Positions 2,876-29,895 of a DNA stretch of 64,000 nt are shown piece by piece (position 1 is the first letter of the stretch; the number at the start of each line of letters is the position of its first letter). The stretch is from Candidatus Eiseniibacteriota bacterium (GTDB lineage: Bacteria; ARS69): the NCBI GenBank assembly GCA_052390515.1, contig JBQTGV010000044.1:15619-79618 (forward strand), in the 5' to 3' direction. The notes beneath the pieces were generated by a model. That model saw only the letters and a list, made by a program, of their open reading frames with translations. It was not told where the DNA came from and searched no databases. Made by a program: the position numbers and the translations under genes.

Positions 2876-5761
2876 ATGAGCGATGATCGCTGGATCCGCC
2901 TGCGCGCTCTCTTCGACGAGATCCAGGAGCTACCCGAGGCGGAGCGCACGTCGTTCCTCGACCGCGAGCTCACCGGGGAGCCCGAGCTCCGCGCGGAGCT
3001 CGCCGTGCTTCTGGCCGACGTGGGATCCACCGCCCGCTTCCTCGCCGAGCCGAGCGACGCGGCCGCCGGCTCGATGGTCGGACCCTATCGGCTTGTCGAG
3101 CGTCTCGGCGAGGGCGGCTTCGGCGTCGTGTACCTGGCCGAGCAAGAGCGGCCGCTCCGTCGCCGCGTGGCGCTCAAACTGATCAAGCCCGGGATGGACT
3201 CCAAGCAGGTGGTGGCCCGCTTCGACGCGGAGCGGCAGGCGCTCGCTCTGATGGATCATCCGGGAATCGCCCAGGTCTTCGACGCCGGCGAGACCGAGAC
3301 GGGGCACCCCTACTTCGCAATGGAGTACGTGCCCGGACTCCCCATCACGAAGTACTGCGACGAGCACCGCCTCGCCGTGCGAGAGCGGCTGGCGCTGCTG
3401 GTCGAAGTGTGCGACGCCGTACAGCACGCGCACCAGAAGGGAGTGATCCACCGCGACATCAAGCCCTCCAACGTGGTGGTCGCCCGCCGCGAAGGCGCCG
3501 CCGCGCCCAAGGTGATCGACTTCGGCATCGCCAAGGCCACGACCAGCCTCGGGTCCGGCGACACGGTGATGACCCACGCGGGCATGATCGTCGGCACGCT
3601 CGACTACATGAGTCCGGAACAGGCCGGCGCGACCGCCGCCGCGATGGACACGCGCTCGGACATCTATTCCCTCGGCGTCCTGCTCTACGAGCTGCTGATC
3701 GGAGAGCTGCCGTTCGACAGCGGGCGCCTTCGGGAGGGCGCGCTCTCCGATGTTCTGCGCGTGATCCGAGAGGAGGATCCACCGCCGCTCACCGTCCGTC
3801 TCGCGCGCAGCGGCGAGGTCGTCGCGCGGGTGGCCGAACGGAGATCCACGGATGCTCGCCGCTTGCTGCGCGATCTGAGAGGCGAGCTGGAGTGGATCAC
3901 ACACCGGGCGCTGGAGAAGGATCCGGAGCATCGCTACCCGTCCGCGGCCGAGCTGGCGGCGGACATCCGCCGGTACCTGGCCGACGAGCCGGTCCTCGCC
4001 GGAGCTCCGACGACGGCGTACAAGATCCGGAAGTTCGTGCGGCGTCACCGCGTGGTCGTTACCGCCGCGGCCGTCGTGCTGCTCAGCATCGTCGCGGGCG
4101 GGATCGCCGCCGCGGTCGGGTTCAGCCGCGCGGTGCGCTCCGAGCAGGTCGCGGTGCGCGCCGAGCAGGCCGCGCGGCGGGAGGCGGAGTCGTCGCAGCG
4201 GGTTGCGGACTTCCTCATCGAGCTGTTCGGCGCCCCGAGTCCGGACCGTTCCAAGGGCGAGACGCTCACCGCGCGCATGCTCCTGGACGAGGGCACGCGC
4301 CGCATCGAGAGCGGACTGAAGGCCGACCCTCAGGTCCGCTCGCGTCTGCTGGGTACGATGGGCGCGTCGTACCTCAATCTCGCGGCGTTCGACGAAGGTG
4401 TACGTCTCCATCGGGAGGCGCTCGCGGCCGCGGAGGCCGCGGAGCCGCCGGACGCCACGGGGATCGGGCGTTCTCTCTTGGGGCTGGCGGTCGGTTTCAA
4501 CATGTCTGGGCAGCAGGACAGTATCCCCGCCGTCATCGATCGGGCGATCTCGCTGCTGGGAGGCACCGAGGGAGCGGACCCGACGCTGCTGGCCCGGTGC
4601 ATCTATCAGAAGGGGCAGTGGTGGAACGCCAAGGGCGACGCTGCGGCCGCGGACTCGTTGGTCTCGGTGGCGCTCCGGATGGAAGAGTCGACTCCTTCGC
4701 CGGAGCCGGCGGTCCTTCTGCCCATGGTCTCCACGAAGGCGAACATCGCGCACCGCCGTTTCGATCTGGATGCCGCGGAGCGTGACTACCTGCGCGTCGT
4801 GCAGCTCGCCGAGGAGGCCGGCCGCCCCTCCTGGGCGGTCTCCGCTCACAGCCGCCTGGCGGCGGTCTACGCTTCGCTGCAGGAGTCCGAGAAGGCCCTG
4901 CACCACGCGCAGGCGGGCTTGGATCTCGCCCGTCGGATCTACGCGCCGGATCACCCCAACGTCGCCGATGCACTCAGCGGTCTGGCCGCGGCCCTGACCG
5001 GCCAGGGAAGCCTCGACGAGGCGATCGCCGCCAGGGAGGAGGCGCTCGGGATCTTGAGGAAGCGGGCACTGCCCGAGGCCGTCGCGTACGAGCTCAACAT
5101 CCTCGCGCGGCTCTGCAGCGCCCTGGGGCGGCACGAGCTGGCGGTCGCCCGCGCCGGCGAGGCGTCCGAGCTCCGTCGCGGCACTCACGGGACGGACCAC
5201 ACCCGCACCGCCGAGTCGCTGGCGACGCTGGGGGCGTGCTGCGTCGCCGCGGGACAACCGGAGCAGGCCGACGCGCCGTTCCGCGAGGCCATCGCGATCT
5301 TCGATCGCCTCGGGGACAAGAGCATCTTCCCGCCCGTGACCTGGGTCGAGTATGCGGACCTCTGCCGCGACCGCGGGCTGTTCGAGCGCGCGGAGAGCTT
5401 GTACACGCGCGCCGAGGCGGCCCTGGACTCGACGAACGCGGGCATGAGGCAGCACGTCGGAGTCTGTCTGGCCGGACACGGCGAGCTCAGGTCGCTGCAG
5501 GGCCGTCACGACGAGGCGGAGTCCATGATGCGCAGCGGATACCCGCTGATACGCGGCGAGACGTCCGACGACGATGCGATCCTCGGTGACGTGCATCTGT
5601 CGTGGGCCGTCGTGCGGATGCGCGCGGGCAATGCCGAGGGGGCGCTCGAAGAGCTGCGCCGCGCGGCCGCCTGCGGGGTGACCTCCGAGGACGTCGCGGG
5701 TCATCCGGAGCTCGCCGCACTCCGTTCGCGGGTCGACTACCCGCGGGACAGCTTCCCGTAG
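2876..5761 (+). CDS. Ser/Thr protein kinase with a conserved N-terminal extension, one TM helix and a C-terminal TPR sensor domain (module 1)
   Basis: Hanks kinase motifs are present: GEGGFGVVY, VALK, HRDIKPSN, DFG, GTLDYMSPEQ. A TM segment VVVTAAAVVLLSIVAGGIAAAVGF follows. The C-terminal half has TPR-like repeats. There are four paralogs in the window. Confidence 0.85.
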   Translation: MSDDRWIRLRALFDEIQELPEAERTSFLDRELTGEPELRAELAVLLADVGSTARFLAEPSDAAAGSMVGPYRLVERLGEGGFGVVYLAEQERPLRRRVALKLIKPGMDSKQVVARFDAERQALALMDHPGIAQVFDAGETETGHPYFAMEYVPGLPITKYCDEHRLAVRERLALLVEVCDAVQHAHQKGVIHRDIKPSNVVVARREGAAAPKVIDFGIAKATTSLGSGDTVMTHAGMIVGTLDYMSPEQAGATAAAMDTRSDIYSLGVLLYELLIGELPFDSGRLREGALSDVLRVIREEDPPPLTVRLARSGEVVARVAERRSTDARRLLRDLRGELEWITHRALEKDPEHRYPSAAELAADIRRYLADEPVLAGAPTTAYKIRKFVRRHRVVVTAAAVVLLSIVAGGIAAAVGFSRAVRSEQVAVRAEQAARREAESSQRVADFLIELFGAPSPDRSKGETLTARMLLDEGTRRIESGLKADPQVRSRLLGTMGASYLNLAAFDEGVRLHREALAAAEAAEPPDATGIGRSLLGLAVGFNMSGQQDSIPAVIDRAISLLGGTEGADPTLLARCIYQKGQWWNAKGDAAAADSLVSVALRMEESTPSPEPAVLLPMVSTKANIAHRRFDLDAAERDYLRVVQLAEEAGRPSWAVSAHSRLAAVYASLQESEKALHHAQAGLDLARRIYAPDHPNVADALSGLAAALTGQGSLDEAIAAREEALGILRKRALPEAVAYELNILARLCSALGRHELAVARAGEASELRRGTHGTDHTRTAESLATLGACCVAAGQPEQADAPFREAIAIFDRLGDKSIFPPVTWVEYADLCRDRGLFERAESLYTRAEAALDSTNAGMRQHVGVCLAGHGELRSLQGRHDEAESMMRSGYPLIRGETSDDDAILGDVHLSWAVVRMRAGNAEGALEELRRAAACGVTSEDVAGHPELAALRSRVDYPRDSFP

Positions 5762-6309
5762 AGCCAGGTCCGGGCGAAGGCCCAATCCCGCATCACCGTG
5801 CGCTTCGAGGACTGCAGAGTCTCGACCACCTCCTCCACGCTCAGCCCTCCATAGAATCGGAGGCGGACGACCTGCGCCGCCCGTTCGTCGCGCTCGGCGA
5901 GCTGCTCGATGGCCCGGTCCAGCGCCAGGATCGTCTCGGGGTCCCCGTCGTCGGCGAGCGCCGCCACCTGGGAGAGGTCCAGGGAGACCTTGTGCGGCGG
6001 TCTCCCTTCGGAATCGCCGCCGCGCTTCGCCCGGCCGCGGGCCCGGGCCCGCTCGATCAGGATCCGGCGCATGGCCACGGCCGCCGCGGCGAAGAACTCG
6101 CGGCGGCTTTGCCAGACGCTCCCGTCCCGGGGACCGAGGCGCAAGTAGGCCTCGTGGACCAGCTCGGTGGACTGAATGGTCTGGCCGCTGCGCTCGCCGC
6201 GCATCCGCGCGTGTGCCAGGGCGCGAAGCTCCTGGTAGACCTCGGCGAAGAAGGCGTCGGAGCCGGCCGGACCGGCGGCATCCGGCTCCTCGGGGGGCTG
6301 GCTGGCCAT
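5737..6309 (-). CDS. ECF sigma factor, kinase-associated type (ECF43/TIGR02999-like)
   Basis: Sigma-70 region 2 and 4 motifs are present (ELVHEAYLRL; LRFYGGLSVEEVAETL). The C-terminal tail is 'DWAFARTWLYGKLSRG'. It converges on the kinase gene with a 25-nt 3' overlap. There are five paralogs. Confidence 0.85.
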   Translation of the reverse strand: MASQPPEEPDAAGPAGSDAFFAEVYQELRALAHARMRGERSGQTIQSTELVHEAYLRLGPRDGSVWQSRREFFAAAAVAMRRILIERARARGRAKRGGDSEGRPPHKVSLDLSQVAALADDGDPETILALDRAIEQLAERDERAAQVVRLRFYGGLSVEEVVETLQSSKRTVMRDWAFARTWLYGKLSRG

Positions 6310-6366
6310 CGCCCGATGGTAGGCGCCGCCGGTCCGCGGCTCAACGGGCAGTTTCCGGTCCGCCGC

Positions 6367-6395
6367 GTGGCACCGTCCCGGCAGTTCCGGCGCAC
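6367..6395 (+). promoter_or_regulatory. Candidate ECF-type promoter GTGGCAC-N17-CGCAC upstream of peptide gene 1
   Basis: This is copy 1 of 7 of the bipartite motif TGTCAC(C)-N17-CGCA(T), with an exact 17-nt spacer in every copy. It lies 63 nt upstream of the peptide ATG. Confidence 0.55.
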
Positions 6396-6458
6396 TGGGG
6401 GGCGGCCGTCTCCCGAGGAGACGGCGGCGGACATCAACCTTCCTTCGGAGGCAACGAC

Positions 6459-6542
6459 ATGATCACCCTCTTCGCGCTCGTCCTGGAACTCGTCGCTGGC
6501 AGGATCGCGGCCAACCACAATCAATCCGGGCTGGCCGGCTGA
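6459..6542 (+). CDS. Small conserved peptide (27 aa) MITLFALVLELVAGRIAANHNQSGLAG; peptide family member 1
   Basis: GGAGG lies 8 nt upstream of the ATG. It is one of six paralogs sharing the LFxLxL(D/E)hhAGRhAANHNQ core. It is divergent from the sigma gene. Confidence 0.6.
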   Translation: MITLFALVLELVAGRIAANHNQSGLAG

Positions 6543-9686: not shown

Positions 9687-12551
9687 ATGGCCGACGAACA
9701 CTGGGATCGCGTCCGCGCGCTCTTCGAGCAGGTCCTGGAGCTGCGGGAGTCCGAGCGCACCGCGTTCCTGGACCGCGAGCTCGCCGGCGAGCCGGCGGTA
9801 CGCGCTGACCTCGTGTCTCTCCTCTCCGCGGGTCAGGCGAGCACCGAGTTCCTGGCCGGCGACTCCACCGGGGACCACGGATCGATCGGGCCGTATCGCC
9901 TCGTCAAGGTGATCGGCGAGGGCGGCTTCGGCGTGGTGTACCTCGCAGAGCAAGAGCGCCCGCTCCGCCGCCGCGTGGCGCTCAAGCTGATCAAGCGCGG
10001 GATGGACACGAAGCAGGTGATCGCGCGCTTCGAGGCGGAGCGGCAGGCGTTGGCGATGATGGACCACCCCGGAATCGCGCAAGTCTTCGACGCCGGCGAG
10101 ACCGAGATGGGGCGGCCCTACTTCGTCATGGAGTACGTGCCGGGCGTTCCCATCACGAGGTTCTGCGACGAGCAACGCCTCACCCTCCGAGACCGTCTGT
10201 CGCTGCTCGCGAACGTGTGCGACGCGGTGCAGCACGCGCACCAGAAGGGTGTGATCCACCGCGACATCAAACCGACGAACGTGGTGGTCGCGCGGCGCGA
10301 CGGAGTGGTCACACCCAAGGTGATCGACTTCGGCATCGCCAAGGCGACCACGGGCTTCCGCGGCGGGACCCTGATGACTCAGGAAGGGGCGATCGTCGGC
10401 ACGCTCGGGTACATGAGTCCGGAGCAGGCCGGCGCTCTGGACGCGCCGGTGGACACCCGTTCGGACATTTACTCGCTGGGGGTGATGCTCTACGAGCTGC
10501 TGATCGGGGCGCTGCCCTTCGACGACGGTCGCCTTCGTCAAGGCGCGCTGTCGGATGCGCTTCGCGTGATCCGGGAGGAGGATCCGCCGGCGCTGACCGT
10601 GCGGCTCGCACGCAGCGGCGGGGACGTGGCGAAGGTCGCGGAGCGGCGCTCCACGGACGCGCGCCGCCTGCTGCGGGACCTGAAGGGCGAGCTGCAGTGG
10701 ATCACGTTGCGCGCGCTGGAGAAGGATCCGGAGCGGCGCTATTCCTCGGCGGCGGAGTTCGCGGCGGACATTCGCCGGCATCTGACCGACGAGCCGGTGC
10801 TCGCCGGGGCGCCGACCGCCACCTACCGCATCCGGAAGTTCGTGCGTCGCCACCGCGGCGGGGTGGCCGCGGCGACACTGGTGCTCGCCGCGATCCTCGC
10901 CGGCGGCATCGCCTCGACCGTCAGCCTCACGCGCGCCGTCCGCGCCGAGCGCGAAACCCGACTCGAAGCGGAGTCTGCTCGACAGGTCGCAGACTTCCTG
11001 GTCGGCCTTTTCAGCGCGTCCACTCCAGACCGCGCGCGGGGCGCGGTCATCACCGCCCAGACGCTGCTCGAAGAGGGGACGCGGCGCATTCGAGACACGG
11101 TGACGGAGGATCCGCGGGTGCGTGCGCGGCTCTTGACGACGTTGGGGCACGCGAACGTGAACCTCGCTCAGTACGACCAGGGCATCGCTCTCCTGCGCGA
11201 GGCGCTGGCGGTGACCGACTCGAGCGCGTCGTCGGAACCGGTGGAGGTCGTCACTCAGCTCTACGCGCTGGCCACCGGCTTGCTGACATCCGGCCGGGGT
11301 GCCGACGACGAAACCGGCGCGACTCTGGACCGCGCGCTGGCGATCTTGCGTGATTCCGGCGCGGACCGGCCCGACCTGCTGTCGGCCTGTCTGCGCGGAA
11401 AGGGGTCGTGGTTCAACGAACGCGGCGAACTGGCGCCTGCCGAGTCGCTGCTCACGCTGGCCATCCGCACGGCGGAGTCGGTCTCCCCTCCGGATACCGC
11501 GAAGCTCGTCCGCATGTACAGCACGCGGGCGAACATCGCGCACCGGCAGTTCCACCTCGAGGACGCGGAGCGCCATTACTTGCACGCGCTCGAACTGGCG
11601 GAGAAGAGCGGGCAGCCGAGCTGGTCGATCAGCATGCACCGGCGGCTGGCCTCGGTCTACGGCGCGCTCGGCGATCCGGAGAAGGCGATTCGACACGCCG
11701 AAGAGGGAGTGCGGCTCGCACGGCAGATCTATTCGCCCGACCATCCCAACCTGGCTGACGCGCTGAGCGGCCTCGCGTCGGCACTCGCCTCGAAGGGTGA
11801 TGACTCGCAAGCGATCACCGTGAGCGAGGAGGTCGTCCGCATCACGCGCCAGAGCGGGAGATCGTTCGACCTCGCGCTGGAGCTGAACAGCCTGGGGCTT
11901 CTGTACCGCAGCAGCGACCAGCCGGAGCGGGCCGTGGCCTGCGCCGAGGAATCCTGGCGAATTCGCAACGAGACCCTCGGCGCGGGAAACGCGCGGACGG
12001 CGGAGTCGCTGGCCAACCTGGCGCGGAGCCTGTTCGCGGCGGGACAGACCGCGCGCGCGGACTCTTCGTTCCAGGCGGCCATCGCGGTGTTCGATCGGCT
12101 GGACGCGACGGGAGTGTTCACCGCGGTGGCCTACGCGAGCTTCGCGAACCTTTGTCGCGACACGAAGCGCCTCGCCCGCGCCGATACACTCTACGCTCAC
12201 GCCCAGGCCCTATTGGACTCCACGAATGCCGGGCTCCGACCCTACGCGGGCGAGTGCCTCATGGACCACGGGTACCTCCGCTCGCTGCAGGGTCGCCACG
12301 CGGAGGCGGAGGCCATGATCGCCGCCGGCTTCCCGTTGCGGCGAGGGGAGACGGCGGAGACGGATCCGGGGCTCGGACAGTGGTACCTGATCTGGGCCGC
12401 CTCGCGCGCAGCCGCCGGCGACGTGGACGGGGCCCTCGGAAAACTCCGGGAAGCGGCCCGCTGCGGTGTCACCTCGGAGGATGCGGAGACGCTCTCGGAG
12501 CTGGCCGCGCTCCGCTCCCGCGCCGACTATCCGCTGGAAGACTCCCGCTGA
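9687..12551 (+). CDS. Ser/Thr protein kinase with TM and TPR domain (module 2 paralog)
   Basis: It has the same architecture and the same N-terminal 'W.RV.ALF...ER.AFLDRE...LRA.L..LL' extension as the other paralogs. HRDIKPTN, DFG and GTLGYMSPEQ are present. Confidence 0.85.
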   Translation: MADEHWDRVRALFEQVLELRESERTAFLDRELAGEPAVRADLVSLLSAGQASTEFLAGDSTGDHGSIGPYRLVKVIGEGGFGVVYLAEQERPLRRRVALKLIKRGMDTKQVIARFEAERQALAMMDHPGIAQVFDAGETEMGRPYFVMEYVPGVPITRFCDEQRLTLRDRLSLLANVCDAVQHAHQKGVIHRDIKPTNVVVARRDGVVTPKVIDFGIAKATTGFRGGTLMTQEGAIVGTLGYMSPEQAGALDAPVDTRSDIYSLGVMLYELLIGALPFDDGRLRQGALSDALRVIREEDPPALTVRLARSGGDVAKVAERRSTDARRLLRDLKGELQWITLRALEKDPERRYSSAAEFAADIRRHLTDEPVLAGAPTATYRIRKFVRRHRGGVAAATLVLAAILAGGIASTVSLTRAVRAERETRLEAESARQVADFLVGLFSASTPDRARGAVITAQTLLEEGTRRIRDTVTEDPRVRARLLTTLGHANVNLAQYDQGIALLREALAVTDSSASSEPVEVVTQLYALATGLLTSGRGADDETGATLDRALAILRDSGADRPDLLSACLRGKGSWFNERGELAPAESLLTLAIRTAESVSPPDTAKLVRMYSTRANIAHRQFHLEDAERHYLHALELAEKSGQPSWSISMHRRLASVYGALGDPEKAIRHAEEGVRLARQIYSPDHPNLADALSGLASALASKGDDSQAITVSEEVVRITRQSGRSFDLALELNSLGLLYRSSDQPERAVACAEESWRIRNETLGAGNARTAESLANLARSLFAAGQTARADSSFQAAIAVFDRLDATGVFTAVAYASFANLCRDTKRLARADTLYAHAQALLDSTNAGLRPYAGECLMDHGYLRSLQGRHAEAEAMIAAGFPLRRGETAETDPGLGQWYLIWAASRAAAGDVDGALGKLREAARCGVTSEDAETLSELAALRSRADYPLEDSR

Positions 12552-13018
12552 CTCCTGGCCAGCCACCACTCGCGGAATTCGCGGAGCCGCGGCAGCGATT
12601 CTCGATCCTTGACTCGCCCCGTGGCCTCCTTGCTCCGGATGATGTCGTCGATGTGGCAGACCGGCAGCCCCTCCACCACCACCGACCGGGCGAGCGCGTC
12701 TGCGAAGGACTCGATTCCGTCCGGGGCGAACACCAAGTCCAGATCGAACGGTCCCTGGCGAAGCTGGACGAAGTCTTTGCCGCGCTCGATTTCGGCCCGC
12801 TCGCGCTCGTTCAGCTCGAAGCCCAGCGCACCGAGCGCGCGGACCGCTGCCGCTCCATTCGGCGGCGTCTTGTCGAGATAGAGGTCGGCGTCCTGGGTCG
12901 TGTCCGGGAATCCGAGTATGACGGCACCCGCCTTGCCGATGAACAGGTAGCGAACACCGAAGCGCCCGAACGCGGAAGCGATCTCCTGCGCCTGCCGGTA
13001 CTCAAACCGCGCGGCCAT
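12527..13018 (-). CDS. Hypothetical nucleotidyltransferase-like protein whose C-terminal ~20 aa resemble the ECF-sigma C-terminal tail (possible sigma gene remnant fusion)
   Basis: The C-terminal 'EFREWWLARSQRESSSG' can be compared with the sigma 'LRDWAFARAWLYGELSGG'. It occupies the same 25-nt convergent overlap with the kinase 3' end that the sigma genes occupy. Confidence 0.4.
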   Translation of the reverse strand: MAARFEYRQAQEIASAFGRFGVRYLFIGKAGAVILGFPDTTQDADLYLDKTPPNGAAAVRALGALGFELNERERAEIERGKDFVQLRQGPFDLDLVFAPDGIESFADALARSVVVEGLPVCHIDDIIRSKEATGRVKDRESLPRLREFREWWLARSQRESSSG

Positions 13019-13220: not shown

Positions 13221-13473
13221 GCGTTCAACATAGCATCCCGTTGCGGGGTGAGCCACGACCGCCGAGCTTCGGGCTGTGGCGTTGTGAGCCACCTCCGCGA
13301 CATCGAGCGACAGCTTGGGCTGCGCGACGGCCCGGAGCCCGTCGTAGACCTGGGCGATGAAGGCGTCGGAACTCCCCGGAGGGGTGCCGGAGGCGTGAAC
13401 AGGGGGCTCGCCGCGGGAATCGAGCCCGGATGGGAACGGGCCGCTGCCGTGGCTCGACGGGAGCTTCCGGCAA

Positions 13474-15207: not shown

Positions 15208-15265
15208 GTTGCTATCATATGCGATAAACCACCCACGTCCAGGGCCCCCTGGGGTCGAGGGCGCC

Positions 15266-15835
15266 CTATCCGCCGGAAAGCTCACGGTAGAGCCAGGCCC
15301 GGGCGAAAGCCCAGTCCCGCAGCACGGTGCGGGGCGTGATTTCCAGCATCTCGGCCACCTCTTCGACGCTGAGCCCGGCGTAGAAGCGCAGCTTCACGAC
15401 CTTCGCCACCCGCTCCTCCCGGCCGGCCAGCCGATCGACCGCCTGGTCCAGAGCCAGGATGGTCTCGGGGTCGCGGTCGTCCGCCAGTGCGGCCACCTCG
15501 GCGATGTCCAGGGACAGCTTGGGCGCCGGCCGCCCTTCGGAATCCCCGCCGCGCTTCACCCGGCCGCGGGCCCGCGCCCGCTCGATGAGGATCCGGCGCA
15601 TGGCCTCGGCCGCCGCGGCGAAAAACTGGCTCCTGCTCAGCCAGGCGCTGTCGTCCCCAGGGCGAAGCCGGAGGTACGCCTCGTGCACCAGCTCCGTGGA
15701 CTGGAGGGACCGGCTGCTTTCTCCGCGCATCCGCGCGTGGGCGATCGCCCGGAGCTCGTCGTAGACCTGGGCGAAGAAGGCGTCGGACCCGCTTGGGGAG
15801 GGGACGGCAGGGCCGGCGGGGGGCTCGGTCGGCAT
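15266..15835 (-). CDS. ECF sigma factor, kinase-associated type (paralog 2)
   Basis: It has the same motifs as the other sigma paralogs (ELVHEAYLRL, DWAFARAWLYRELSGG). It is divergent from peptide gene 2 and kinase 3. Confidence 0.85.
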   Translation of the reverse strand: MPTEPPAGPAVPSPSGSDAFFAQVYDELRAIAHARMRGESSRSLQSTELVHEAYLRLRPGDDSAWLSRSQFFAAAAEAMRRILIERARARGRVKRGGDSEGRPAPKLSLDIAEVAALADDRDPETILALDQAVDRLAGREERVAKVVKLRFYAGLSVEEVAEMLEITPRTVLRDWAFARAWLYRELSGG

Positions 15836-16286: not shown

Positions 16287-19151
16287 ATGGACCCGGAGAG
16301 GTGGAGCCGGTTGCAGGAGCTCTTTGCCGATCTCCTGGATACTCCCGCGCCCGAGCGCCCCGCCTTCCTCGACCGTGAGGTCGGGGCCGACACAGAACTG
16401 CGTGCCGAGCTCGAGCGGCTCCTCGCCCTGACCGGGTCCGCGGGCGGCTTCCTCGCTGCGCCGGTTACGGATTCCCCAGGAGCCGTGGGTCCCTACCGGC
16501 TCCTCGAGGTCCTGGGCGAAGGCGGCTTCGGTGTCGTGTACCTCGCCGAGCAGGAGCGGCCGATCCGCCGCCGTGTCGCGCTCAAGCTGATCAAGCCGGG
16601 CATGGACACGAAGCGGGTGATCGCTCGCTTCGAGGCGGAACGGCAGGCCCTTGCGCTCATGGACCATCCGGGCATCGCCCAGGTTTTCGAAGCCGGCGCG
16701 ACGGAAGCCGGCCGCCCCTACTTCGCGATGGAGTACGTGCCCGGCGTGCCCATCACCACGTATTGCGAGCGCGAGCATCTGCGCATCCGCGACCGACTCG
16801 AGCTGTTCCTCGACGTCTGCGACGCCATCCAGCACGCGCACCAGAAGGGAGTGATCCATCGGGACATCAAGCCGTCGAACGTGCTCGTGGCGCTGCGCAA
16901 CGGCGCGGCCGCGCCGAAGGTGATCGACTTCGGAATCGTCAAGGCCACGACCGAGGCCTTGGCCGGTGGAACCGTGATGACGAGCGAGGGCATGATCGTC
17001 GGGACCCTGGCCTACATGAGCCCCGAACAGGCCGGCGCGGCCGACGCGGTGGATACTCGCTCGGACATCTATTCCCTCGGAGTGGTCCTCTACGAGCTGC
17101 TGGCGGGATCGCCGCCGTTCGACGCCGAGCTCCTGCGTAGCTCGGCGCTCTCGGATGCGGTGCGCGTGATCCGGGAGGAGGAACCGCCCGCCCTCGCCGT
17201 CCGCGTGACCCGCGGCGGCGAAGAGGGAGTGGCGAAGATCGCGCAGGGTCGATCGGTGGAGCCGCGGCGCCTGCTCCGCGAGCTCAGAGGCGAGCTGCAC
17301 TGGATCACGCTCCGAGCGCTGGAGAAGGACCCGGATCGTCGCTATGCGTCCGCGGCGGAGCTCTCGGCGGACATTCGCCGATACCTGGCCAACGAGCCCG
17401 TGCTCGCCGGCCCCCCGAGAACGCTGGTTCGGCTTCGCAAGTACGCGCGAAGGCACCGCGTGGGAGTGACCGCTGCCCTGGTCGTGCTGCTCGCCATCAT
17501 CGCCGGCGGGATCGCGGCGGGAGTCGGATTCCGGCGTTCGCTCCTGTCCGAGCGCAGGGCGCAGCGGGAGGCCACCTCGGCACGCCAGGTCGCGGCATTC
17601 CTGGTCGAGCTGTTCCAGTCGTCCACGCCGGACCGCGCGCGGGGAGAGACGGTCACCGCCCGGAAGCTCTTGGACGAGGGCGCGCGACGCATCCAGGTCA
17701 GCGCCATGGACGATCCGGAGGTGCGGGCGAGCCTGCTGTCGACCCTCGGGAACGCCCACGTAGAGCTCGGGCTTTACGATGAGGGTGTCGCACTCCTGCG
17801 CGAGGCGCTGGTCACGACCCAAGCTGCGGAGCCGCGCGACGAACGGCGCGTCGCCGAGCAAATGGCAGCGCTCGCCGAAGGGTTGGAGCCGATCGGCAAG
17901 GCGGACAGCGCGGGGATCCTGCTGGATGCGGCGATCGCCATCCTGGAAGAGCCTGAGCATGCAGACGCGGATCTCCTGGCCAGGAGCCTGCTGCGGAAGG
18001 GGGATCTCTTCTACGGCCGAGGCGAGTTCGTGGCGGCGGACTCGCTCATCTCGGTAGCGATTGACATGGCAGAAGCACGAGAAGATCCGGACGAAGCACA
18101 CCTCACCGACATGTACGTGATGAAGGCCAGCATCGCGCACCGTCGGTACGACCTGCAGGAGGCGGAAGGCCACTACCTCCGGGCACTTCGCCTCGCGGAG
18201 GATTCGGGCCGCCCCACTGCGTCGGTGAGCATTCATGGAGGCCTGGCGTACGTATACGCCCAGCTCGGGGATACGGAGAATGCGGTGAGGCACGCCGAGG
18301 AAGGCGTCCGCCTGGCGCGCCGCATCTACTCCCCGGATCACCCCGACCTCGCCGGGGCTCTTTCCGGGCAGGCGGCGGCGCTGCAGGCCCGTGGCGATGT
18401 CGAGCAGGCGATCGCCGCGCGCGAAGAAGCGATCGCCATCTTGCGGGCGGGCTCGCCCGAGCAGGAGCGCCTGGCGCACGAGCTCAACACCGCCGGACTC
18501 GTGTATCGATTCACCGGGCAGCTCGATCTGGCCGTCGCCCGCTTCGAGGAAGCCTGCAGCCTGAAGCGCCGGATCTACGGCGACGAGAATCTCCGCACGG
18601 CGGAGAGCGTGGCGAATCTCGCGCGCTGCTACGCGGACGCTGGGCTGAACGTGCGCGCCGACTCGACGTACCGTGCGGCGATTACGGTGCTCGACCGGTT
18701 CGACCCGACGAGCCTGTTCACGGTGTACGCGTACATGGGGTACGCGAACCTCTGCCGGGACGCCGGACGCGCGGACCAAGCCGACACGCTGTACGCGCAC
18801 GCGCTGGCTGACATGGACTCCACCAACGCAGGAATCCGACCGTACTTCGCCGAGTGCCTGCTCGATCGCGCGATGCTCCGTTCCGCTCAGCGCCGGCACG
18901 CGGAAGCGGAGTCCTTGCTGCAGTCCGGCTGTCGGATGCTGCGCGGCGACGCGCCGGAGGACGACGCGAAGCTCGGCGAGGTGTACACCCGCTGGGCCCT
19001 GACGCGGGTCCGGGCCGGGGACGCGGAGGGAGCCGTGGACAGGCTCCAGCTGGCCCTGCGGTGCGGCGTCGCTGCGGACGAGCTGGAGCAGTACCCGGAG
19101 TTCGCCGCGCTCCGCTCCCGGCCGGACTATCCCTTGGACAGCTCGCCGTAG
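16287..19151 (+). CDS. Ser/Thr protein kinase with TM and TPR domain (paralog 3)
   Basis: It has the conserved N-terminal extension plus HRDIKPSN, DFG and GTLAYMSPEQ, followed by a TM helix and TPR repeats. Confidence 0.85.
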   Translation: MDPERWSRLQELFADLLDTPAPERPAFLDREVGADTELRAELERLLALTGSAGGFLAAPVTDSPGAVGPYRLLEVLGEGGFGVVYLAEQERPIRRRVALKLIKPGMDTKRVIARFEAERQALALMDHPGIAQVFEAGATEAGRPYFAMEYVPGVPITTYCEREHLRIRDRLELFLDVCDAIQHAHQKGVIHRDIKPSNVLVALRNGAAAPKVIDFGIVKATTEALAGGTVMTSEGMIVGTLAYMSPEQAGAADAVDTRSDIYSLGVVLYELLAGSPPFDAELLRSSALSDAVRVIREEEPPALAVRVTRGGEEGVAKIAQGRSVEPRRLLRELRGELHWITLRALEKDPDRRYASAAELSADIRRYLANEPVLAGPPRTLVRLRKYARRHRVGVTAALVVLLAIIAGGIAAGVGFRRSLLSERRAQREATSARQVAAFLVELFQSSTPDRARGETVTARKLLDEGARRIQVSAMDDPEVRASLLSTLGNAHVELGLYDEGVALLREALVTTQAAEPRDERRVAEQMAALAEGLEPIGKADSAGILLDAAIAILEEPEHADADLLARSLLRKGDLFYGRGEFVAADSLISVAIDMAEAREDPDEAHLTDMYVMKASIAHRRYDLQEAEGHYLRALRLAEDSGRPTASVSIHGGLAYVYAQLGDTENAVRHAEEGVRLARRIYSPDHPDLAGALSGQAAALQARGDVEQAIAAREEAIAILRAGSPEQERLAHELNTAGLVYRFTGQLDLAVARFEEACSLKRRIYGDENLRTAESVANLARCYADAGLNVRADSTYRAAITVLDRFDPTSLFTVYAYMGYANLCRDAGRADQADTLYAHALADMDSTNAGIRPYFAECLLDRAMLRSAQRRHAEAESLLQSGCRMLRGDAPEDDAKLGEVYTRWALTRVRAGDAEGAVDRLQLALRCGVAADELEQYPEFAALRSRPDYPLDSSP

Positions 19152-19699
19152 AGCCAGGCCCTGGCGAAGGCCCAGATCCGCAGGACCGTCCGGGTCGACG
19201 TTTCCAGCGTCTCGGCCACCTCCTCCACGGAGAGGCCCGCCCAGAAGCGCAGCCGGACGACTTTCGCGGCCCGCTCGTCCTGGAGCGCCAGCCGCTCGAT
19301 GGCCCGATCCAGCGCCAGGATCGTCTCCGGGTCCTGATCGTCGGCCAGGGCCGCCACCTCGTGCAGGTCCAGCGAGACCTTCGGGGCGGGCCGCCCTTCC
19401 GAGTCCCCGCCGCGCTTGATGCTGCCCCGCGCGCGCGCCCGGTCGACGAGGATCCGCCGCATGGCCTGGGCGGCCGCGTAGAAGAAGTGGGCGCGATTCT
19501 TCCACTCGCCTCGGCCTTCGGGACGAAGGCGCAGATACGCCTCGTGCACCAGCTCGGTGGTCTGGAGGCTCAGCCCGGCCGGTTCGGCGCGCATCCTCGC
19601 CCGAGCGATCGAGCGCAACTCCTCGTAGACGCGCGCGAAGAACGCGTCGGAGGTGCCGCCGTCGGGGCCGGCGGTGTCCCCAGGGGTGTGTCCACCCAT
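19127..19699 (-). CDS. ECF sigma factor, kinase-associated type (paralog 3)
   Basis: The sequence MGGHTPGD...ELVHEAYLRL...RIWAFARAWLYGELSKG is present. It has a 25-nt convergent overlap with the kinase. Confidence 0.85.
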   Translation of the reverse strand: MGGHTPGDTAGPDGGTSDAFFARVYEELRSIARARMRAEPAGLSLQTTELVHEAYLRLRPEGRGEWKNRAHFFYAAAQAMRRILVDRARARGSIKRGGDSEGRPAPKVSLDLHEVAALADDQDPETILALDRAIERLALQDERAAKVVRLRFWAGLSVEEVAETLETSTRTVLRIWAFARAWLYGELSKG

Positions 19700-26488: not shown

Positions 26489-29347
26489 ATGAACGGGGAA
26501 CAGTGGCGCCGGCTGAAGGACCTCTTCGTCGACCTCCAGGGAATGCCGGAGGGCGAGCGAAGCGCTCATCTCGACCGGGAGGCCGCCGGTGATCCGGAGG
26601 TGCGCGCCGAGCTCCATCGATTGCTCGCCGTCGACAGATTCGCCGCCGACTTCCTCGCCGCCGCACACTCCGCTTCCAGCCACGGCTCCATCGGACCCTA
26701 CCGGCTCCTCGAGATCCTGGGCGAAGGCGGCTTCGGCGTGGTGTATCTGGCCGAGCAGGAGCGCCCCATCCGCCGCCGCGTCGCGCTCAAGCTGATCAAG
26801 CCGGGGATGGACACGAAGCAGGTGATCGCCCGCTTCGAGGCCGAGCGGCAAGCCCTGGCTCTCATGGACCATCCCGGCATCGCCCAGGTTCACGACGCGG
26901 GCGAAACGGAGGCGGGCCGGCCGTACTTCGTCATGGAGTACGTGCCCGGGGAGCCCATCACCACGTTTTGCGACCGCGAGCGGCTGCGCATCCCCGAACG
27001 GCTCGAGCTCTTCCTCGAGGTCTGCGACGCGATCCAGCACGCCCACCACAAGAGCGTGATCCACCGGGACATCAAACCCTCCAACGTGCTCGTCGCGCTG
27101 CGCGACGGTGTGCCCGCGCCGAAGGTGATCGACTTCGGCATCGTCAAGGCGACCACGGCGGGGGCGGCCGGTCAAACCCTGATGACGCGCGAGGGGATGA
27201 TCGTCGGGACGCTGGGATACATGAGCCCGGAGCAGGCCGGGGCGGCCGAGACGGTGGACACGCGCTCCGACATCTACTCGCTGGGGGCTCTTCTGTACGA
27301 GCTGCTGGCGGGCTCACCGCCCTTCGACGCCGACCGGCTGAAGAGCGCCGCGCTCTCGGATGCCGTGCGCGTCGTCCGGGAAGAAGAGCCGCCGGCGCTC
27401 GCTGCGCGGGTGGCGCGAGGCGGGGAGGAGGAAGCGGCGGTGGTCGCCGAGCGGCGCTCCGCGGATGCCCGGCACCTTCTCCGCGAGCTGAAGGGCGAGC
27501 TGCAGTGGATCACGCTGCGCGCGCTGGAGAAGGACCCGAGCCGGCGTTACACGTCGGCGGCGGAGCTGGCGGCCGACATCCGCCGGCACCTCGCGAACGA
27601 GCCCGTGCTGGCCGTTGCTCCGAGCACGGCCTACCGGATGCGCAAGTTCGCCCGGAGGCACCGGGTCGGCGTCGTCGCTGCGACCGTCGTGCTGGCCACG
27701 ATCGTGGTCGGGGGAATCGCCGCGGGAATCGGCTTCGGCCGGGCGGTTCGTGCCGAGCACAAGGCACAACGCGAAGCGGAATCCCTACAGCGCGTCACCG
27801 ACTTTCTGGTCGAGTTGTTTCGCACGTCGAGCCCGGATCAATCCCGCGGAGAGACCATCACCGCGCGGACCCTCCTCGACGAGGGCACACGTCGCATCGA
27901 GGCCGACCTCGAGGCGGACGCGCACATCCGTGCGCGCCTGCTGGCGACGCTGGGCGACGCACATGTGAACCTGGCGCTCTACGATGACGGCCTTCGCCTG
28001 CTGCGCGAAGCGGTGGCGACGAGCGAAGCTGCGGAACCGCGCGACGACCTGGAGATCGCCGAGCAGCTTCGCCGATTGGCCTACGGCCTCAGAATGGCGG
28101 GACAGCTCGACAGCGTCGGGGTCCTCCTCGATCGCGCGATGGAGCTCGGACGCGACGCTGGGGCGCGCTCTCGCTGGATGGCGGGGTGCCTGTCGAACAA
28201 GGCTTCCTGGCTGAACAGCCTGGGCCAGCTCGCGCCGGCAGATTCGCTCGTGACGCTGGCGATCGAGATGGGTGAGTCCGAGCCGGAGCCGGATCGCCCT
28301 CAGCTCATGCGCATGTACTACACGAAGGGAAACATCGCCCACCGTCGGTTCGAGCTGCCGGATGCCGAGCGTCACTACCTCCGGGCGCTGGAGCTTTGCG
28401 AAAGCGGGGGAACCGAACCGACCTGGTCGGCGATGCTCCATCGCAGCCTGGCGTCCCTCTACGCCGCCCTCGGCGATCCGGAGAGGGCGGTGAGTCATGC
28501 GGAGCAGGGCGTGCGTCTCGCCCGGCGGCTCTATGCCTCCGACCATCCCAACCTCGCCTACGCGCTGGGCGGCCACGCGGCGGCCCTGGCCGGCAAAGGA
28601 GATTACTCGGGGGCGCTCGCTGTGCGGGAGGAGGCGCTGGGCATTTGGCGTGCGACCGGGGCGCAGACCGACCTCGCCCGCGAGCTGAACAGCGTAGGAA
28701 TCCTGCACCGGGCTGCCGGTCAACTCGATCTCGCTATCGCCTGCACGGAAGAAGCGTGCGCGCTGTACCGCGCGTCATTCGGTCAGGAAAGCGGCCGAAC
28801 CGCGGAGGCGGTCGCCAACCTGGCGCGGCTGTATGCGGAGAAGGGGCAGCTCCATCGCGCCGACTCGACGTACCGCGCAGCCGTTCCCGTGTTCGATCGG
28901 CTGCGCGACGGAAGCATCTTCGCCACCTATGCCTCCATGGGCTTCGCCAACGTGTGTCGGGATCTCGGGCGCTCGGCTCAGGCCGAGAGCCTCTATTCGC
29001 GGGTGGAGTCCGCGCTGGACTCCACCGAGGCGGGCCTGCGGGGCTATTTCGGCGAGTGCCTGGTGGATCACGCTTACCTGCGGTCGCGGCAGGGGAGGCA
29101 CGACGAGGCGGAGTCCATGATGCGGATCGGGCTCCCCATGCAACGCGGCGACGCCGCCGAGGATGCTCGAAGTCTGGGTGCCGCGTACCTCACGTGGGCA
29201 GCGGCGCGCGCGCTGGCCGGGGACGCCGCCGGCGCCATCGAGAAGCTCCAGCAGGCCGCCCGCTGCGGCGTGACGGTGCAGGACGCCGCCCGATATCCCG
29301 AGCTCGCCGCGCTCCCGGCCGACTACCCCCTGGAGAGCTCTCCGTAG
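26489..29347 (+). CDS. Ser/Thr protein kinase with TM and TPR domain (paralog 4)
   Basis: It has the conserved N-terminal extension, the kinase motifs, a TM helix and TPR repeats. It starts 16 nt after the NHL gene stop. Confidence 0.85.
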   Translation: MNGEQWRRLKDLFVDLQGMPEGERSAHLDREAAGDPEVRAELHRLLAVDRFAADFLAAAHSASSHGSIGPYRLLEILGEGGFGVVYLAEQERPIRRRVALKLIKPGMDTKQVIARFEAERQALALMDHPGIAQVHDAGETEAGRPYFVMEYVPGEPITTFCDRERLRIPERLELFLEVCDAIQHAHHKSVIHRDIKPSNVLVALRDGVPAPKVIDFGIVKATTAGAAGQTLMTREGMIVGTLGYMSPEQAGAAETVDTRSDIYSLGALLYELLAGSPPFDADRLKSAALSDAVRVVREEEPPALAARVARGGEEEAAVVAERRSADARHLLRELKGELQWITLRALEKDPSRRYTSAAELAADIRRHLANEPVLAVAPSTAYRMRKFARRHRVGVVAATVVLATIVVGGIAAGIGFGRAVRAEHKAQREAESLQRVTDFLVELFRTSSPDQSRGETITARTLLDEGTRRIEADLEADAHIRARLLATLGDAHVNLALYDDGLRLLREAVATSEAAEPRDDLEIAEQLRRLAYGLRMAGQLDSVGVLLDRAMELGRDAGARSRWMAGCLSNKASWLNSLGQLAPADSLVTLAIEMGESEPEPDRPQLMRMYYTKGNIAHRRFELPDAERHYLRALELCESGGTEPTWSAMLHRSLASLYAALGDPERAVSHAEQGVRLARRLYASDHPNLAYALGGHAAALAGKGDYSGALAVREEALGIWRATGAQTDLARELNSVGILHRAAGQLDLAIACTEEACALYRASFGQESGRTAEAVANLARLYAEKGQLHRADSTYRAAVPVFDRLRDGSIFATYASMGFANVCRDLGRSAQAESLYSRVESALDSTEAGLRGYFGECLVDHAYLRSRQGRHDEAESMMRIGLPMQRGDAAEDARSLGAAYLTWAAARALAGDAAGAIEKLQQAARCGVTVQDAARYPELAALPADYPLESSP

Positions 29348-29895
29348 AGCCAGGTCCTGGCGAAGGCCCAATCCCGGAGCACGGTACGCTTCGACGCTTC
29401 CAGCGTCTCCGCCACCTCCTCGACGCTCAGGCCCGCGTAGAAGCGCAGCCGAACGATCTGCGCCGCCCGCTCGTCCTGCACCGCCAGCCGCTCGATGGCA
29501 CGGTCCAGGGCGAGGATCGTCTCCGGGTCCCTGTCGTCGGCGATCGCGGCGACCTCCTCGAGGTCGAGCGACACCTTGGGCGCCGGTCGGCCCTCGGAAT
29601 CGCCGCCGCGCTTGACTCGCCGCCGGGCGCGGGCCCGGTCGATGAGGATCCGCCGCATGGCCTCGGCCGCCGCGGCGAAGAACTCCGCGCGGCCCTGCCA
29701 ATCGCCTGCCCCCTCGGGGCGAAGGCGCAGGTAGGCCTCGTGCACGAGCTCGGTGGTCTGGAGGCTCTGGCCCGCGTTCTCGCCCCGCATCCGCGCGTGC
29801 GCGATCGTGCGGAGCTCGTCGTAGACGCGGGCGAAGAACGCGTCGGAACCGGCCGGGCCGGGCTCGTCGGGTTGGGCAGGGGGCTCGGTGGACAT
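29323..29895 (-). CDS. ECF sigma factor, kinase-associated type (paralog 4)
   Basis: It has the same motifs as the other sigma paralogs. It has a 25-nt convergent overlap with kinase 4 and is divergent from kinase 5. Confidence 0.85.
   Translation of the reverse strand: MSTEPPAQPDEPGPAGSDAFFARVYDELRTIAHARMRGENAGQSLQTTELVHEAYLRLRPEGAGDWQGRAEFFAAAAEAMRRILIDRARARRRVKRGGDSEGRPAPKVSLDLEEVAAIADDRDPETILALDRAIERLAVQDERAAQIVRLRFYAGLSVEEVAETLEASKRTVLRDWAFARTWLYGELSRG

What the first reader, a model, noticed from the sequence alone, without database searches (positions are those of the whole stretch)
5737..5761. Conserved 25-nt convergent overlap in which the kinase C-terminus is encoded antisense to the sigma C-terminus
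In four modules the kinase gene on the plus strand and the sigma gene on the minus strand overlap by exactly 25 nt. These overlaps are at 5737-5761, 19127-19151, 29323-29347 and, with a sigma-remnant ORF, 12527-12551. The same DNA encodes the kinase tail DYP(L/R)(D/E)S(S/F)P* on one strand and the sigma tail (Y)G(E/K)LS(K/R)G* on the other. The kinase stop TAG is complementary to a Leu codon within the WLYGELS motif. This constrains both tails. It also implies obligate convergent transcription, meaning possible antisense or transcriptional-interference regulation between each kinase and its sigma.
Basis: seen in the sequence. Interest (0 to 1): 0.55.

Follow-up and report, generated by a model that had tools for sequence, protein, structure and literature searches.

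The report
Conserved 25-nt sigma/kinase tail-to-tail overlap
Several sigma-factor genes and their partner kinase genes face each other and share their last 25 bases; this is real and conserved across related uncultured bacteria, but it looks like a frozen by-product of genome compaction, not a dedicated regulatory device.

Summary
At 5737-5761, 19127-19151 and 29323-29347, a Ser/Thr kinase gene (+) and an ECF sigma gene (-) overlap by exactly 25 nt.

The fourth case (12527-12551) is a kinase overlapping a nucleotidyltransferase-like gene, not a sigma.

The same 25-nt overlap occurs in 14 further loci from other MAGs and metagenomes. More distant relatives have the usual sigma-then-kinase operon (106 of 109).

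The geometry is an interlock. The sigma stop is antisense to the kinase's conserved Asp|Tyr codons. The kinase stop is antisense to the sigma's invariant Leu|Tyr junction, not to a Leu codon. Third codon positions coincide.

The overlap evolves at the sigma's rate, and the kinase's last five residues are largely a read-out of the sigma tail. Internal wobble sites vary freely, and I found no conserved RNA structure or terminator.

Best reading: an ECF43-type phospho-activated sigma/kinase pair, inverted in one clade, compacted, then held by dual coding. Convergent transcription is implied by geometry. Any regulatory role is untested.

The parts
2876..5761 (+). K1: Hanks-type Ser/Thr kinase. Layout is an N-terminal helical region, the kinase domain, one TM helix and a C-terminal TPR domain. 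The ORF is open from 2777; the probable start is ATG 2876.
   Evidence: Pkinase 4e-40, TPR_12 3e-36. The HRDIKPSN and DFG motifs and the TM stretch VVVTAAAVVLLSIVAGGIAAAVGF were read directly from the sequence.
5737..6309 (-). S1: ECF sigma factor of the TIGR02999 / PF07638 (ECF43-type) family. It has QSTE in sigma2.2 in place of DAED.
5737..5761 (.). The 25-nt tail-to-tail overlap of K1 and S1. The sigma stop is rc(CTA) at 5737-5739. The kinase stop is TAG at 5759-5761.
9687..12551 (+). K2: paralogous kinase with tail DYPLEDSR* (TGA).
12527..13018 (-). Nucleotidyltransferase-like gene, not a sigma. It overlaps K2 by 25 nt, and its last ~7 codons lie in overlap-derived DNA.
   Evidence: The same arrangement is seen in L161 and L162.
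13269..13409 (-). Degenerate remnant of a sigma N-terminus: S1 residues 4-57, 33% identity, E = 2e-4. The promoter-like motif sits upstream of it at 13508-13482.
15266..15835 (-). S6: intact fifth ECF sigma of the same family, tail WLYRELSGG*. About 2.7 kb separates it from K2; that stretch holds an AbiEii-like gene and the NTase-like gene.
16287..19151 (+). K3: paralogous kinase.
19127..19699 (-). S3: paralogous sigma. It overlaps K3 by 25 nt at 19127-19151.
26489..29347 (+). K4: paralogous kinase.
29323..29895 (-). S4: paralogous sigma. It overlaps K4 by 25 nt at 29323-29347.
30080..32944 (+). K5: paralogous kinase with tail EYPFRGTR*. It does not overlap its sigma.
32956..33537 (-). S5: paralogous sigma with tail WLYGELSGDGA*, 11 nt from K5. 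The overlap has been resolved here by ~42 extra nt.

Best explanation
**What the genes are**
- Each module is an ECF43-type signalling pair.
- One partner is a membrane Hanks-type Ser/Thr kinase with an extracytoplasmic TPR sensor.
- The other is an ECF sigma that lacks the acidic DAED patch in sigma2.2 and carries Q(S/T)TE there.
- By analogy with EcfP/PknT and EcfK/PknS, the kinase would activate the sigma by phosphorylating it. This step is inferred from the family, not shown here.

**How the overlap arose (inferred from comparison)**
- The ancestral gene order is sigma followed by kinase on the same strand.
- In one clade the kinase gene was inverted, so the two genes face each other. The clade's members are labelled Eiseniibacteriota, Krumholzibacteriota, Gemmatimonadota or unclassified MAGs.
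- A later loss of the short spacer and of the variable tails brought the two conserved C-terminal motifs back to back. These are WLYGEL(S) in the sigma and (R)PDYP in the kinase.
- Each ORF then runs on to the first stop it meets.
- The sigma stop is the antisense of the kinase's Asp|Tyr codons (gaC TAc). The kinase stop is the antisense of the sigma's Leu|Tyr codons (ctC TAc). The distance between the two is 25 nt.

**Why it persists (shown by substitution patterns)**
- The two frames are in the phase where third codon positions coincide (123:213). That is the phase in which the two wobble positions coincide.
- Changing either stop usually changes a conserved residue of the partner, or it lengthens the protein. 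Losing the kinase stop would add 30 residues in 14 of 17 loci.
- An indel would shift both tails at once.
- The overlap evolves at the sigma's rate. The kinase's last five residues are essentially the antisense read-out of the sigma tail.

**Consequence**
The two genes are separate, converging transcription units with no room for an intergenic terminator. The overlap is best seen as a frozen, interlocked by-product of compaction, not as a purpose-built regulatory element. Any interference between the two transcripts would be a side effect.
For: **Family identity**
- PF07638 and TIGR02999 score above their cutoffs; the kinase has Pkinase plus TPR.
- QSTE/QTTE sits at the sigma2.2 position, matching the ECF43 description in PMC13147305 and PMC8999054.

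**Gene order**
- Outgroup loci, with sigma at most 53% identical: 106 co-directional, 3 convergent.
- In-clade loci, 64-80% identical: 17 convergent with exactly 25 nt, 8 convergent with other spacing, 1 co-directional.
- The clade sits on a long stem in the NJ tree. Non-overlapping members with long sigma tails tend to branch near its base.
- L005 versus L012 shows a clean inversion of the kinase gene between collinear flanks.

**The interlock**
- The kinase stop is TAG in 17 of 17 overlap loci.
- The sigma stop is TAG in 15, TAA in 1 and TGA in 1. In the TGA case the kinase Tyr has become Gln, as the dual code predicts.

**Rates of change (entropy at codon positions 1/2/3)**
- Overlap: 0.47/0.29/0.87.
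- Sigma-only flank: 0.48/0.31/1.06.
- Kinase-only flank: 0.82/0.86/1.36.
- By BLOSUM conservation, the sigma's YGEL and the kinase's DYP are high. Kinase positions +4 and +5 score only 0.21 and 0.11.
- DYP is kept in kinases that do not overlap a sigma: L002, L006, L092 and K2. L089 has DFP and K5 has EYP.
- WLYxE(L/I) is the family-wide end of the sigma.

**No extra nucleotide-level constraint**
- Internal shared wobble sites have 0.98-1.76 bits of entropy.
- The RNAalifold consensus is -2.35 kcal/mol with no covariation.
- The scans found no terminator-like or sigma-70-type promoter-like sites, and there were no Rfam hits.

**The overlap is dispensable**
- Related pairs have overlaps or gaps of -14, +7, +11, +18, +34, +100 and +124 nt.
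- The window's own M5 has lost it.

**Background**
- Convergent overlaps are a known class, commonly explained by stop-codon loss. Phase 123:213 was reported as very abundant in Pseudomonas aeruginosa (PMC2174442). This window is 70% G+C.
- The window holds another convergent overlap, of 4 nt, between unrelated genes at 57966-57969.
Against: - An exact 25-nt overlap kept while the kinases diverged to ~40-57% identity could also reflect selection for something the overlap does. This was not excluded.
- The sigma Leu codon is CTC in 17 of 17 overlap loci. The only two CTG cases in the clade are non-overlapping. That is compatible with selection to keep the kinase stop, but it is not significant, and CTC also predominates in basal non-overlapping members.
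- The ancestral-state inference rests on an unbootstrapped NJ tree and on a partial sample, namely the best 80 loci from each collection.
- No transcript data were available.
- Phosphorylation of these sigmas by these kinases is inferred from the family only.
Confidence: 0.66

Rival explanations
1. Regulatory overlap. The tail-to-tail overlap is kept because convergent transcription couples the two genes negatively. The coupling could act through RNA polymerase collision, or through complementary mRNA 3' ends that form double-stranded RNA and are cleaved. For example, it could damp kinase levels when the sigma gene is induced, or the reverse.
For: - Geometry forces each mRNA to contain at least 25 nt complementary to the other.
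- No intergenic or conserved intragenic terminator was found.
- Both genes have their own -10-like hexamers near the start: 20 of 27 sigmas and 15 of 19 kinases, against ~0.2 per 90 nt elsewhere.
- A bipartite motif lies upstream of many sigmas and of some kinases, so both could be induced together.
- The exact overlap is kept in 17 of 26 pairs across deep divergence.
- The convergent orientation is kept in 25 of 26 in-clade pairs.
Against: - Eight in-clade pairs have other spacings, and one has re-inverted to an operon-like order. The 25-nt overlap itself is therefore dispensable.
- No extra conservation is seen at shared wobble sites.
- Coding constraints alone explain the conservation.
- There are no expression data.
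Confidence: 0.2
2. Linkage lock. In a lineage with many paralogous sigma/kinase pairs (five in 34 kb here), physically fusing the 3' ends keeps each cognate pair together through duplication and recombination. On this view the overlap is selected because it limits cross-talk between mismatched partners.
For: - Modules are duplicated as K+S units. K4-S4-K5-S5 stand in tandem, and L161 carries a kinase/sigma pair next to a kinase/NTase-like pair.
- The K2 junction suggests that splitting a pair needs duplication of the shared segment: overlap-derived sequence sits at both K2 and S6, on either side of the 2.7-kb stretch.
Against: - A co-directional operon gives equally tight linkage and is the norm in the wider family (106 of 109).
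- Pairs with small gaps persist.
- I made no test of cognate specificity.
Confidence: 0.08
3. Artefact. One of the two ORF ends is not the real protein end, so no true dual coding exists. The kinase might end earlier, or the region might hold sequencing or assembly errors.
For: High-GC genomes produce long spurious ORFs in the wobble-matched antisense frame; an example is the 951-aa shadow ORF at 2930-5785.
Against: - Both ends are defined by stop codons of genes with strong family matches. The sigma profile match runs to residue 187 of 190.
- The same geometry appears in 14 independent assemblies.
- No in-frame stop lies earlier in either gene.
Confidence: 0.02

Closest known systems
ECF43-type sigma factors activated by a co-encoded Hanks-type Ser/Thr kinase (EcfP/PknT of Vibrio parahaemolyticus; EcfK/PknS of Xanthomonas citri)
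   Same: - The sigma matches PF07638 and TIGR02999.
- Sigma2.2 lacks DAED and carries Q(S/T)TE. This compares with the ECF43 consensus QTTA and with QATE in EcfK.
- A transmembrane Hanks kinase with a large extracytoplasmic domain is encoded next to the sigma.
- No anti-sigma gene lies within the module.
   Different: - The gene order is tail-to-tail with a 25-nt shared 3' end, instead of the usual sigma-then-kinase same-strand arrangement (106 of 109 outgroup loci here).
- The pair is expanded to at least five paralogous modules in 34 kb.
- Phosphorylation has not been shown for these proteins.
Convergent (tail-to-tail) overlapping gene pairs in prokaryotes, usually explained by stop-codon loss (Lillo & Krakauer 2007, PMC2174442)
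   Same: - Two real genes on opposite strands share their 3' ends.
- The phase is 123:213, one of the three convergent-overlap phases described there.
- The origin is consistent with loss of the original stops or spacer and read-through to the next stop.
   Different: - The overlap is longer than the modal 4 nt.
- Its exact length is conserved across many species and paralogues.
- Both stops are anchored in the partner's conserved Tyr codon, which forms a reciprocal interlock.
Convergent gene pairs regulated by overlapping 3' ends (antisense RNA or transcriptional interference; reviewed in PMC3389743, and see arfA/mscL in PMC10070815)
   Same: The geometry would yield complementary 3' mRNA ends and converging polymerases.
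   Different: No transcript, expression or structure evidence exists here. The resemblance is a lead, not a finding.

Membership tests
ECF43-type / TIGR02999 (Sig-70_X6) ECF sigma factors | The profile HMM match is above the curated cutoff. | tested here: met
   TIGR02999 scores 177.2 bits against a cutoff of 126.15. PF07638 gives 7e-46 and covers residues 16-187 of 190. S5 and S6 match likewise.
ECF43-type / TIGR02999 (Sig-70_X6) ECF sigma factors | Sigma2.2 lacks the acidic DAED motif and has a Ser/Thr phospho-acceptor (consensus QTTA). | tested here: met
   QSTE is present in S1 and S5, and QTTE in S3 and S4, directly before LVHEAY. The motif definition comes from PMC13147305 and PMC8999054. 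The fourth residue stays acidic, as in EcfK (QATE).
ECF43-type / TIGR02999 (Sig-70_X6) ECF sigma factors | A Hanks-type Ser/Thr kinase is encoded next to the sigma, with no anti-sigma factor. | tested here: met
   A kinase is adjacent to four of the five window sigmas and in 26 of 30 in-clade loci. There is no ORF between the partners. Anti-sigma absence was judged only from the immediate neighbours.
ECF43-type / TIGR02999 (Sig-70_X6) ECF sigma factors | The sigma is inactive until phosphorylated by the cognate kinase. | not testable with these tools
   This needs in vitro phosphorylation or a phosphomimetic assay.
ECF43-type / TIGR02999 (Sig-70_X6) ECF sigma factors | Assignment by the ECF classification's own group HMMs (Casas-Pastor et al. 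2021). | not tested
   Those models were not available. 'ECF43-type' here rests on TIGR02999, PF07638, the sigma2.2 motif and kinase linkage.
Hanks-type transmembrane receptor Ser/Thr kinases | A Pkinase domain with catalytic HRD and DFG motifs, one TM helix and an extracytoplasmic sensor domain. | tested here: met
   Pkinase scores 4e-40 and TPR_12 3e-36. HRDIKPSN, DFGIAK and a 23-residue hydrophobic stretch were read. The topology is inferred.
Conserved convergent overlapping gene pair | Both ORFs are real genes, and each stop codon lies inside the other's coding sequence. | tested here: met
Conserved convergent overlapping gene pair | The overlap is retained in orthologues. | tested here: met
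   Among the 26 in-clade pairs, 17 have exactly 25 nt, 14 of them outside the window, plus L161.
Antisense / transcriptional-interference regulated convergent pair | Both genes are transcribed from their own promoters, with overlapping transcripts. | tested here: inconclusive
   -10-like hexamers are enriched near both starts. No transcript data are available.
Antisense / transcriptional-interference regulated convergent pair | Expression of one partner depends on transcription of the other. | not testable with these tools
   This needs RNA-seq or reporter constructs.
Bidirectional intrinsic terminator between convergent genes | A GC-rich hairpin with flanking U/A tracts, conserved across orthologues. 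| tested here: not met
   There were no terminator-like sites in 5200-6700. The consensus fold of 15 orthologous junctions is -2.35 kcal/mol with no compensatory pairs.

The most novel reading that the evidence does not exclude
The shared 3' end may be a working part of the signalling circuit. Sigma and kinase are transcribed towards each other with no terminator between them. Induction of one, for example autoregulated sigma transcription from the GCGmCGGAA-N11-GTGACAC motif, would then lower the other through polymerase collision or through cleavage of the complementary mRNA ends, which removes the stop codons. That would give an RNA-level negative feedback or toggle, which the operon-type ECF43 systems lack.
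Probability: 0.15. Interest if true: 0.55.

Novelty: new variant of a known kind. Interest (0 to 1): 0.3.

Why it matters
- It documents a clade-wide rearrangement of a known signalling module, the phospho-activated ECF sigma with its Hanks kinase, from an operon to converging and physically interlocked genes.
- It gives a clean natural example of how two conserved C-terminal motifs can lock a gene overlap in place. Each stop is the antisense of the partner's Tyr codon, and the wobble positions coincide.
- For annotation, the ~5-residue kinase tail should not be read as a functional motif.
- For regulation, kinase expression in this clade is uncoupled from the sigma's promoter and may be opposed to it. 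That is testable.
- It does not reveal a new kind of system.

Tried and rejected
- **Source contig.** Exact-sequence look-ups of S1 and of P0001 found nothing on record. The origin comes only from the NCBI name of the 100%-identical protein P0001, a Candidatus Eiseniibacteriota MAG.
- **Promoter and terminator scan.** The scan around module 1 found nothing.
- **RNA.** The consensus fold of 15 orthologous junctions showed no structure and no covariation. A local hairpin in the PELAALR codons of the window copies is not conserved. Rfam and tRNA scans were empty.
- **Invertible switch.** I looked for inverted repeats flanking the kinase gene. Only weak GC-rich pairs turned up. L005 has 29-nt arms that are 72% complementary and coincide with the promoter-like motif. 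I did not pursue this as a switch.
- **Leu-codon test for selection on the kinase stop.** CTC occurs in 17 of 17 overlap loci, 11 of 13 other in-clade loci and 15 of 35 high-GC outgroup loci. This is inconclusive, because CTC predates the overlap.
- **ORF 12527-13018 as a sigma remnant.** Rejected. Its 'EWWLA' stretch is a conserved part of its own family.
- **K5 tail as a diverged copy of the overlap.** No significant similarity was found: 306 of 500 shuffles scored as high.
- **PADLOC.** Only weak AbiEii hits for the ORFs of the inserted stretch.
- **Literature.** I found no description of a convergent ECF43/kinase arrangement in the papers read.
Full report
**1. What is in the sequence**

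The window is 70% G+C. ORF listing and translation show five paralogous pairs. Each pair has a ~950-990-aa protein on the + strand and a ~190-aa protein on the - strand.

- The large proteins have a Pkinase domain, one hydrophobic helix and C-terminal TPR repeats.
- The small proteins match PF07638 (Sigma70_ECF) and TIGR02999 (Sig-70_X6) above the curated cutoff. The profile match reaches residue 187 of 190.

At K1/S1 (5737-5761), K3/S3 (19127-19151) and K4/S4 (29323-29347), the two stop codons lie 25 nt apart, each inside the other gene. Both ends are defined by stops, so gene-start uncertainty is irrelevant.

**2. Corrections to the observation**

*The fourth overlap.* The overlap at 12527-12551 is between K2 and a 163-aa ORF that is not a sigma.
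- The ORF has no Pfam hit. It belongs to a very large family of ~158-aa nucleotidyltransferase-like proteins, with more than 7800 hits.
- Its 'FREWWLA' stretch is native to that family, and the family's C-termini vary in length.
- Only its last ~7 codons lie in DNA homologous to the junction of the other modules.
- A related metagenome contig (L161) shows the same NTase/kinase 25-nt overlap next to a regular sigma/kinase 25-nt overlap. It also carries a 64-aa sigma fragment.

*Around K2 in the window.* Three features lie nearby:
- a degenerate sigma N-terminal remnant at 13269-13409;
- an AbiEii-like gene at 14102-15034;
- a fifth intact sigma, S6, at 15266-15835.

Overlap-derived sequence sits on both sides of this 2.7-kb stretch.

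There, ~42 extra nt separate the tails, leaving an 11-nt gap. The S5 side keeps the junction sequence. The K5 tail is new.

*The stop codon.* The kinase TAG is antisense to ctC|TAc, the Leu|Tyr junction. It is not antisense to a Leu codon.

**3. Conservation elsewhere**

A profile of the four sigmas retrieved 80 loci from species-representative genomes and 80 from metagenomes. I measured stop-to-stop geometry in all of them.

- Identity to S1 falls into two classes: 64-80% ('in-clade') and 53% or less.
- Among in-clade pairs, 17 are convergent with exactly 25 nt of overlap. Three are in the window and 14 are elsewhere.
- Eight are convergent with other spacing: -14, +7, +11, +18, +34, +100, +124 and +594 nt.
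- One is co-directional, and four have no kinase nearby.
- Among outgroup loci from many phyla, 106 have the kinase co-directional just downstream of the sigma. Only 3 are convergent.
- In-clade record titles name Gemmatimonadota, Krumholzibacteriota or just 'bacterium'.
- The window itself matches a protein of a Candidatus Eiseniibacteriota MAG at 100%.

An NJ tree puts the clade on a long stem. Members with long sigma tails and no overlap lie mostly near its base. The tree is unbootstrapped, so this is tentative.

L005 and L012 have closely similar sigmas (83% DNA identity over the sigma gene) and collinear flanks, but oppositely oriented kinase genes. This is a clean inversion.

The parsimonious history is:
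- an operon-type ancestor;
- inversion of the kinase at the base of the clade;
- later compaction to the 25-nt state;
- occasional secondary loss, as in M5, L002 and L005.

**4. Anatomy of the overlap**

Kinase codon position 1 pairs with sigma position 2, position 2 with position 1, and position 3 with position 3. This is phase 123:213 in the terms of PMC2174442, which reports it as very abundant in Pseudomonas aeruginosa.

- The first two bases of each sigma codon therefore fix the first two bases of a kinase codon.
- Sigma Y-G-E-L-S-x-G-stop reads in antisense as kinase stop-P-S-S-(D/E/V)-(L/F/R)-P-Y.
- The sigma stop is the antisense of the kinase's D|Y. The kinase stop is the antisense of the sigma's L|Y.
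- Across 17 overlap loci the kinase stop is always TAG. The sigma stop is TAG in 15, TAA in 1 and TGA in 1.
- In the TGA case the kinase Tyr becomes Gln, exactly as the dual code requires.
- If the kinase TAG were lost, the ORF would run on for 30 codons in 14 of 17 loci. Loss of the sigma stop would add 7-159 codons.

**5. Which tail is selected**

Column entropy by codon position:

| Region | pos 1 | pos 2 | pos 3 |
|---|---|---|---|
| Overlap (sigma frame) | 0.47 | 0.29 | 0.87 |
| Sigma-only flank | 0.48 | 0.31 | 1.06 |
| Kinase-only flank | 0.82 | 0.86 | 1.36 |

- The overlap evolves like the sigma gene.
- By BLOSUM-based conservation, the sigma's W-L-Y-G-E-L and the kinase's D-Y-P are high. 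Kinase positions +4 and +5 score 0.21 and 0.11.
- Conservative sigma changes, such as S to T or L to I, go with radical kinase changes, such as D/E to V or S to I.
- DYP is kept in kinases that do not overlap a sigma, and WLYxE(L/I) is the family-wide end of the sigma.
- So two independently constrained motifs abut. The kinase's last five residues are mostly a by-product.
- The seven internal shared wobble sites carry 0.98-1.76 bits. That is as variable as the flanks, so nothing beyond coding constrains the DNA or RNA there.

**6. Regulation**

- The scan found no terminator-like or sigma-70-type promoter-like sites.
- There is no conserved fold or covariation at the junction, and no Rfam hit.
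- Both genes carry -10-like TAnnnT hexamers close to their starts: 20 of 27 sigmas and 15 of 19 kinases, against ~0.2 per 90 nt elsewhere.
- Many sigma genes look leaderless, with TTGAG-N17-TAssAT lying 6-9 nt before the ATG.
- A bipartite motif, GCGmCGGAA-N11-GTGACAC, is enriched: 26 hits against 2-5 (mean 4) in shuffles. It lies upstream of sigmas and of some kinases.

Independent, converging transcription is therefore likely, and the geometry forces at least 25 nt of mRNA complementarity. Whether this has any regulatory effect cannot be decided here. The overlap itself is dispensable in nine related pairs, which argues that it is not essential.

**7. Comparison with known systems**

- The pair fits the ECF43-type sigma/Hanks-kinase systems. 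It has the HMM membership and Q(S/T)TE in place of DAED in sigma2.2. It also has an adjacent transmembrane kinase and no anti-sigma factor.
- It differs in gene order and in the shared 3' end.
- As an overlap, it belongs to the known class of convergent overlaps attributed to stop loss. It is unusual only in its exact conservation and its reciprocal Tyr/stop anchoring.
- The window has at least one unrelated convergent overlap, of 4 nt, at 57966-57969. Tail-to-tail overlaps are therefore not special in this genome.

**8. Verdict**

The feature is real and conserved and has a clear structural explanation. The interpretation as a regulatory device is possible but unsupported. Interest is modest.

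Noticed in passing
About 42 extra nt between the tails replace the overlap with an 11-nt gap and give both proteins new ends (FRGTR* and SGDGA*).
   Followed up: yes
window 12527-15835: About 2.7 kb lies between K2 and an intact sigma (S6, 15266-15835). It holds a widespread NTase-like gene (12527-13018), a degenerate sigma N-terminal remnant (13269-13409) and an AbiEii-like toxin gene (14102-15034). Overlap-derived sequence sits at both ends. L161 has a similar composite with a 64-aa sigma fragment.
   Followed up: partly
window 6393-6367(-), 15917-15891(-), 33652-33626(-), 33869-33843(-), 13508-13482(-), 22557-22531(-); also L003, L005, L012, L082-L084, L086, L090, L091: A bipartite motif, GCGmCGGAA-N11-GTGACAC, with 26 hits in in-clade loci against 2-5 (mean 4) in shuffles. 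It lies 20-100 nt upstream of sigma genes and of some kinase genes. It is possibly the sigma's own target promoter or a regulator site. One copy (22557-22531) has no obvious downstream gene.
   Followed up: partly
window 6310-6360, 15836-15880, 19700-19750, 29896-29940, 33538-33580: Sigma genes have a TTGAG-N17-TA(C/G)(C/G)AT promoter-like pair ending only 6-9 nt before the ATG, which suggests leaderless mRNAs. Kinase genes have TGTAnAAT-like extended -10 elements.
   Followed up: partly
window 6615-9497 (-): A sixth, different Ser/Thr kinase (Kx). It carries an FGE-sulfatase domain and a C-terminal hydrolase-like region. It lies on the same strand as S1, directly upstream of it, and is divergent from K2.
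   Followed up: no
L005 5023-8572 versus L012 5050-8020: Two Gemmatimonadota MAGs have similar sigmas (83% DNA identity over the sigma gene) and collinear flanks, but the kinase gene is inverted. L005 has the operon-like order and a CTG Leu codon in WLY. The L005 kinase is flanked by inverted copies of the promoter-like motif (29 nt, 72% complementary).
   Followed up: partly
window 19929-26473 and 33857-35209: Between the modules lie genes for large secreted-looking proteins. Two are ~830-aa proteins with DUF5122 beta-propeller, FlgD_ig and Por_Secre_tail (T9SS sorting) domains. Two are NHL-repeat proteins. They are possible targets of the sigmas.
   Followed up: no
window 57966-57969 and 41765-41799: Other convergent overlaps occur in the same window. 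One is 4 nt, between a DeoC-like aldolase gene and a ThiF-family gene. A possible 35-nt overlap involves a 113-aa ORF with no family match.
   Followed up: partly
whole window: The protein of ORF 12527-13018 is 100% identical to an NCBI entry from a Candidatus Eiseniibacteriota MAG (80-kb contig). None of the species-representative genomes searched had a sigma more than 80% identical to S1.
   Followed up: partly
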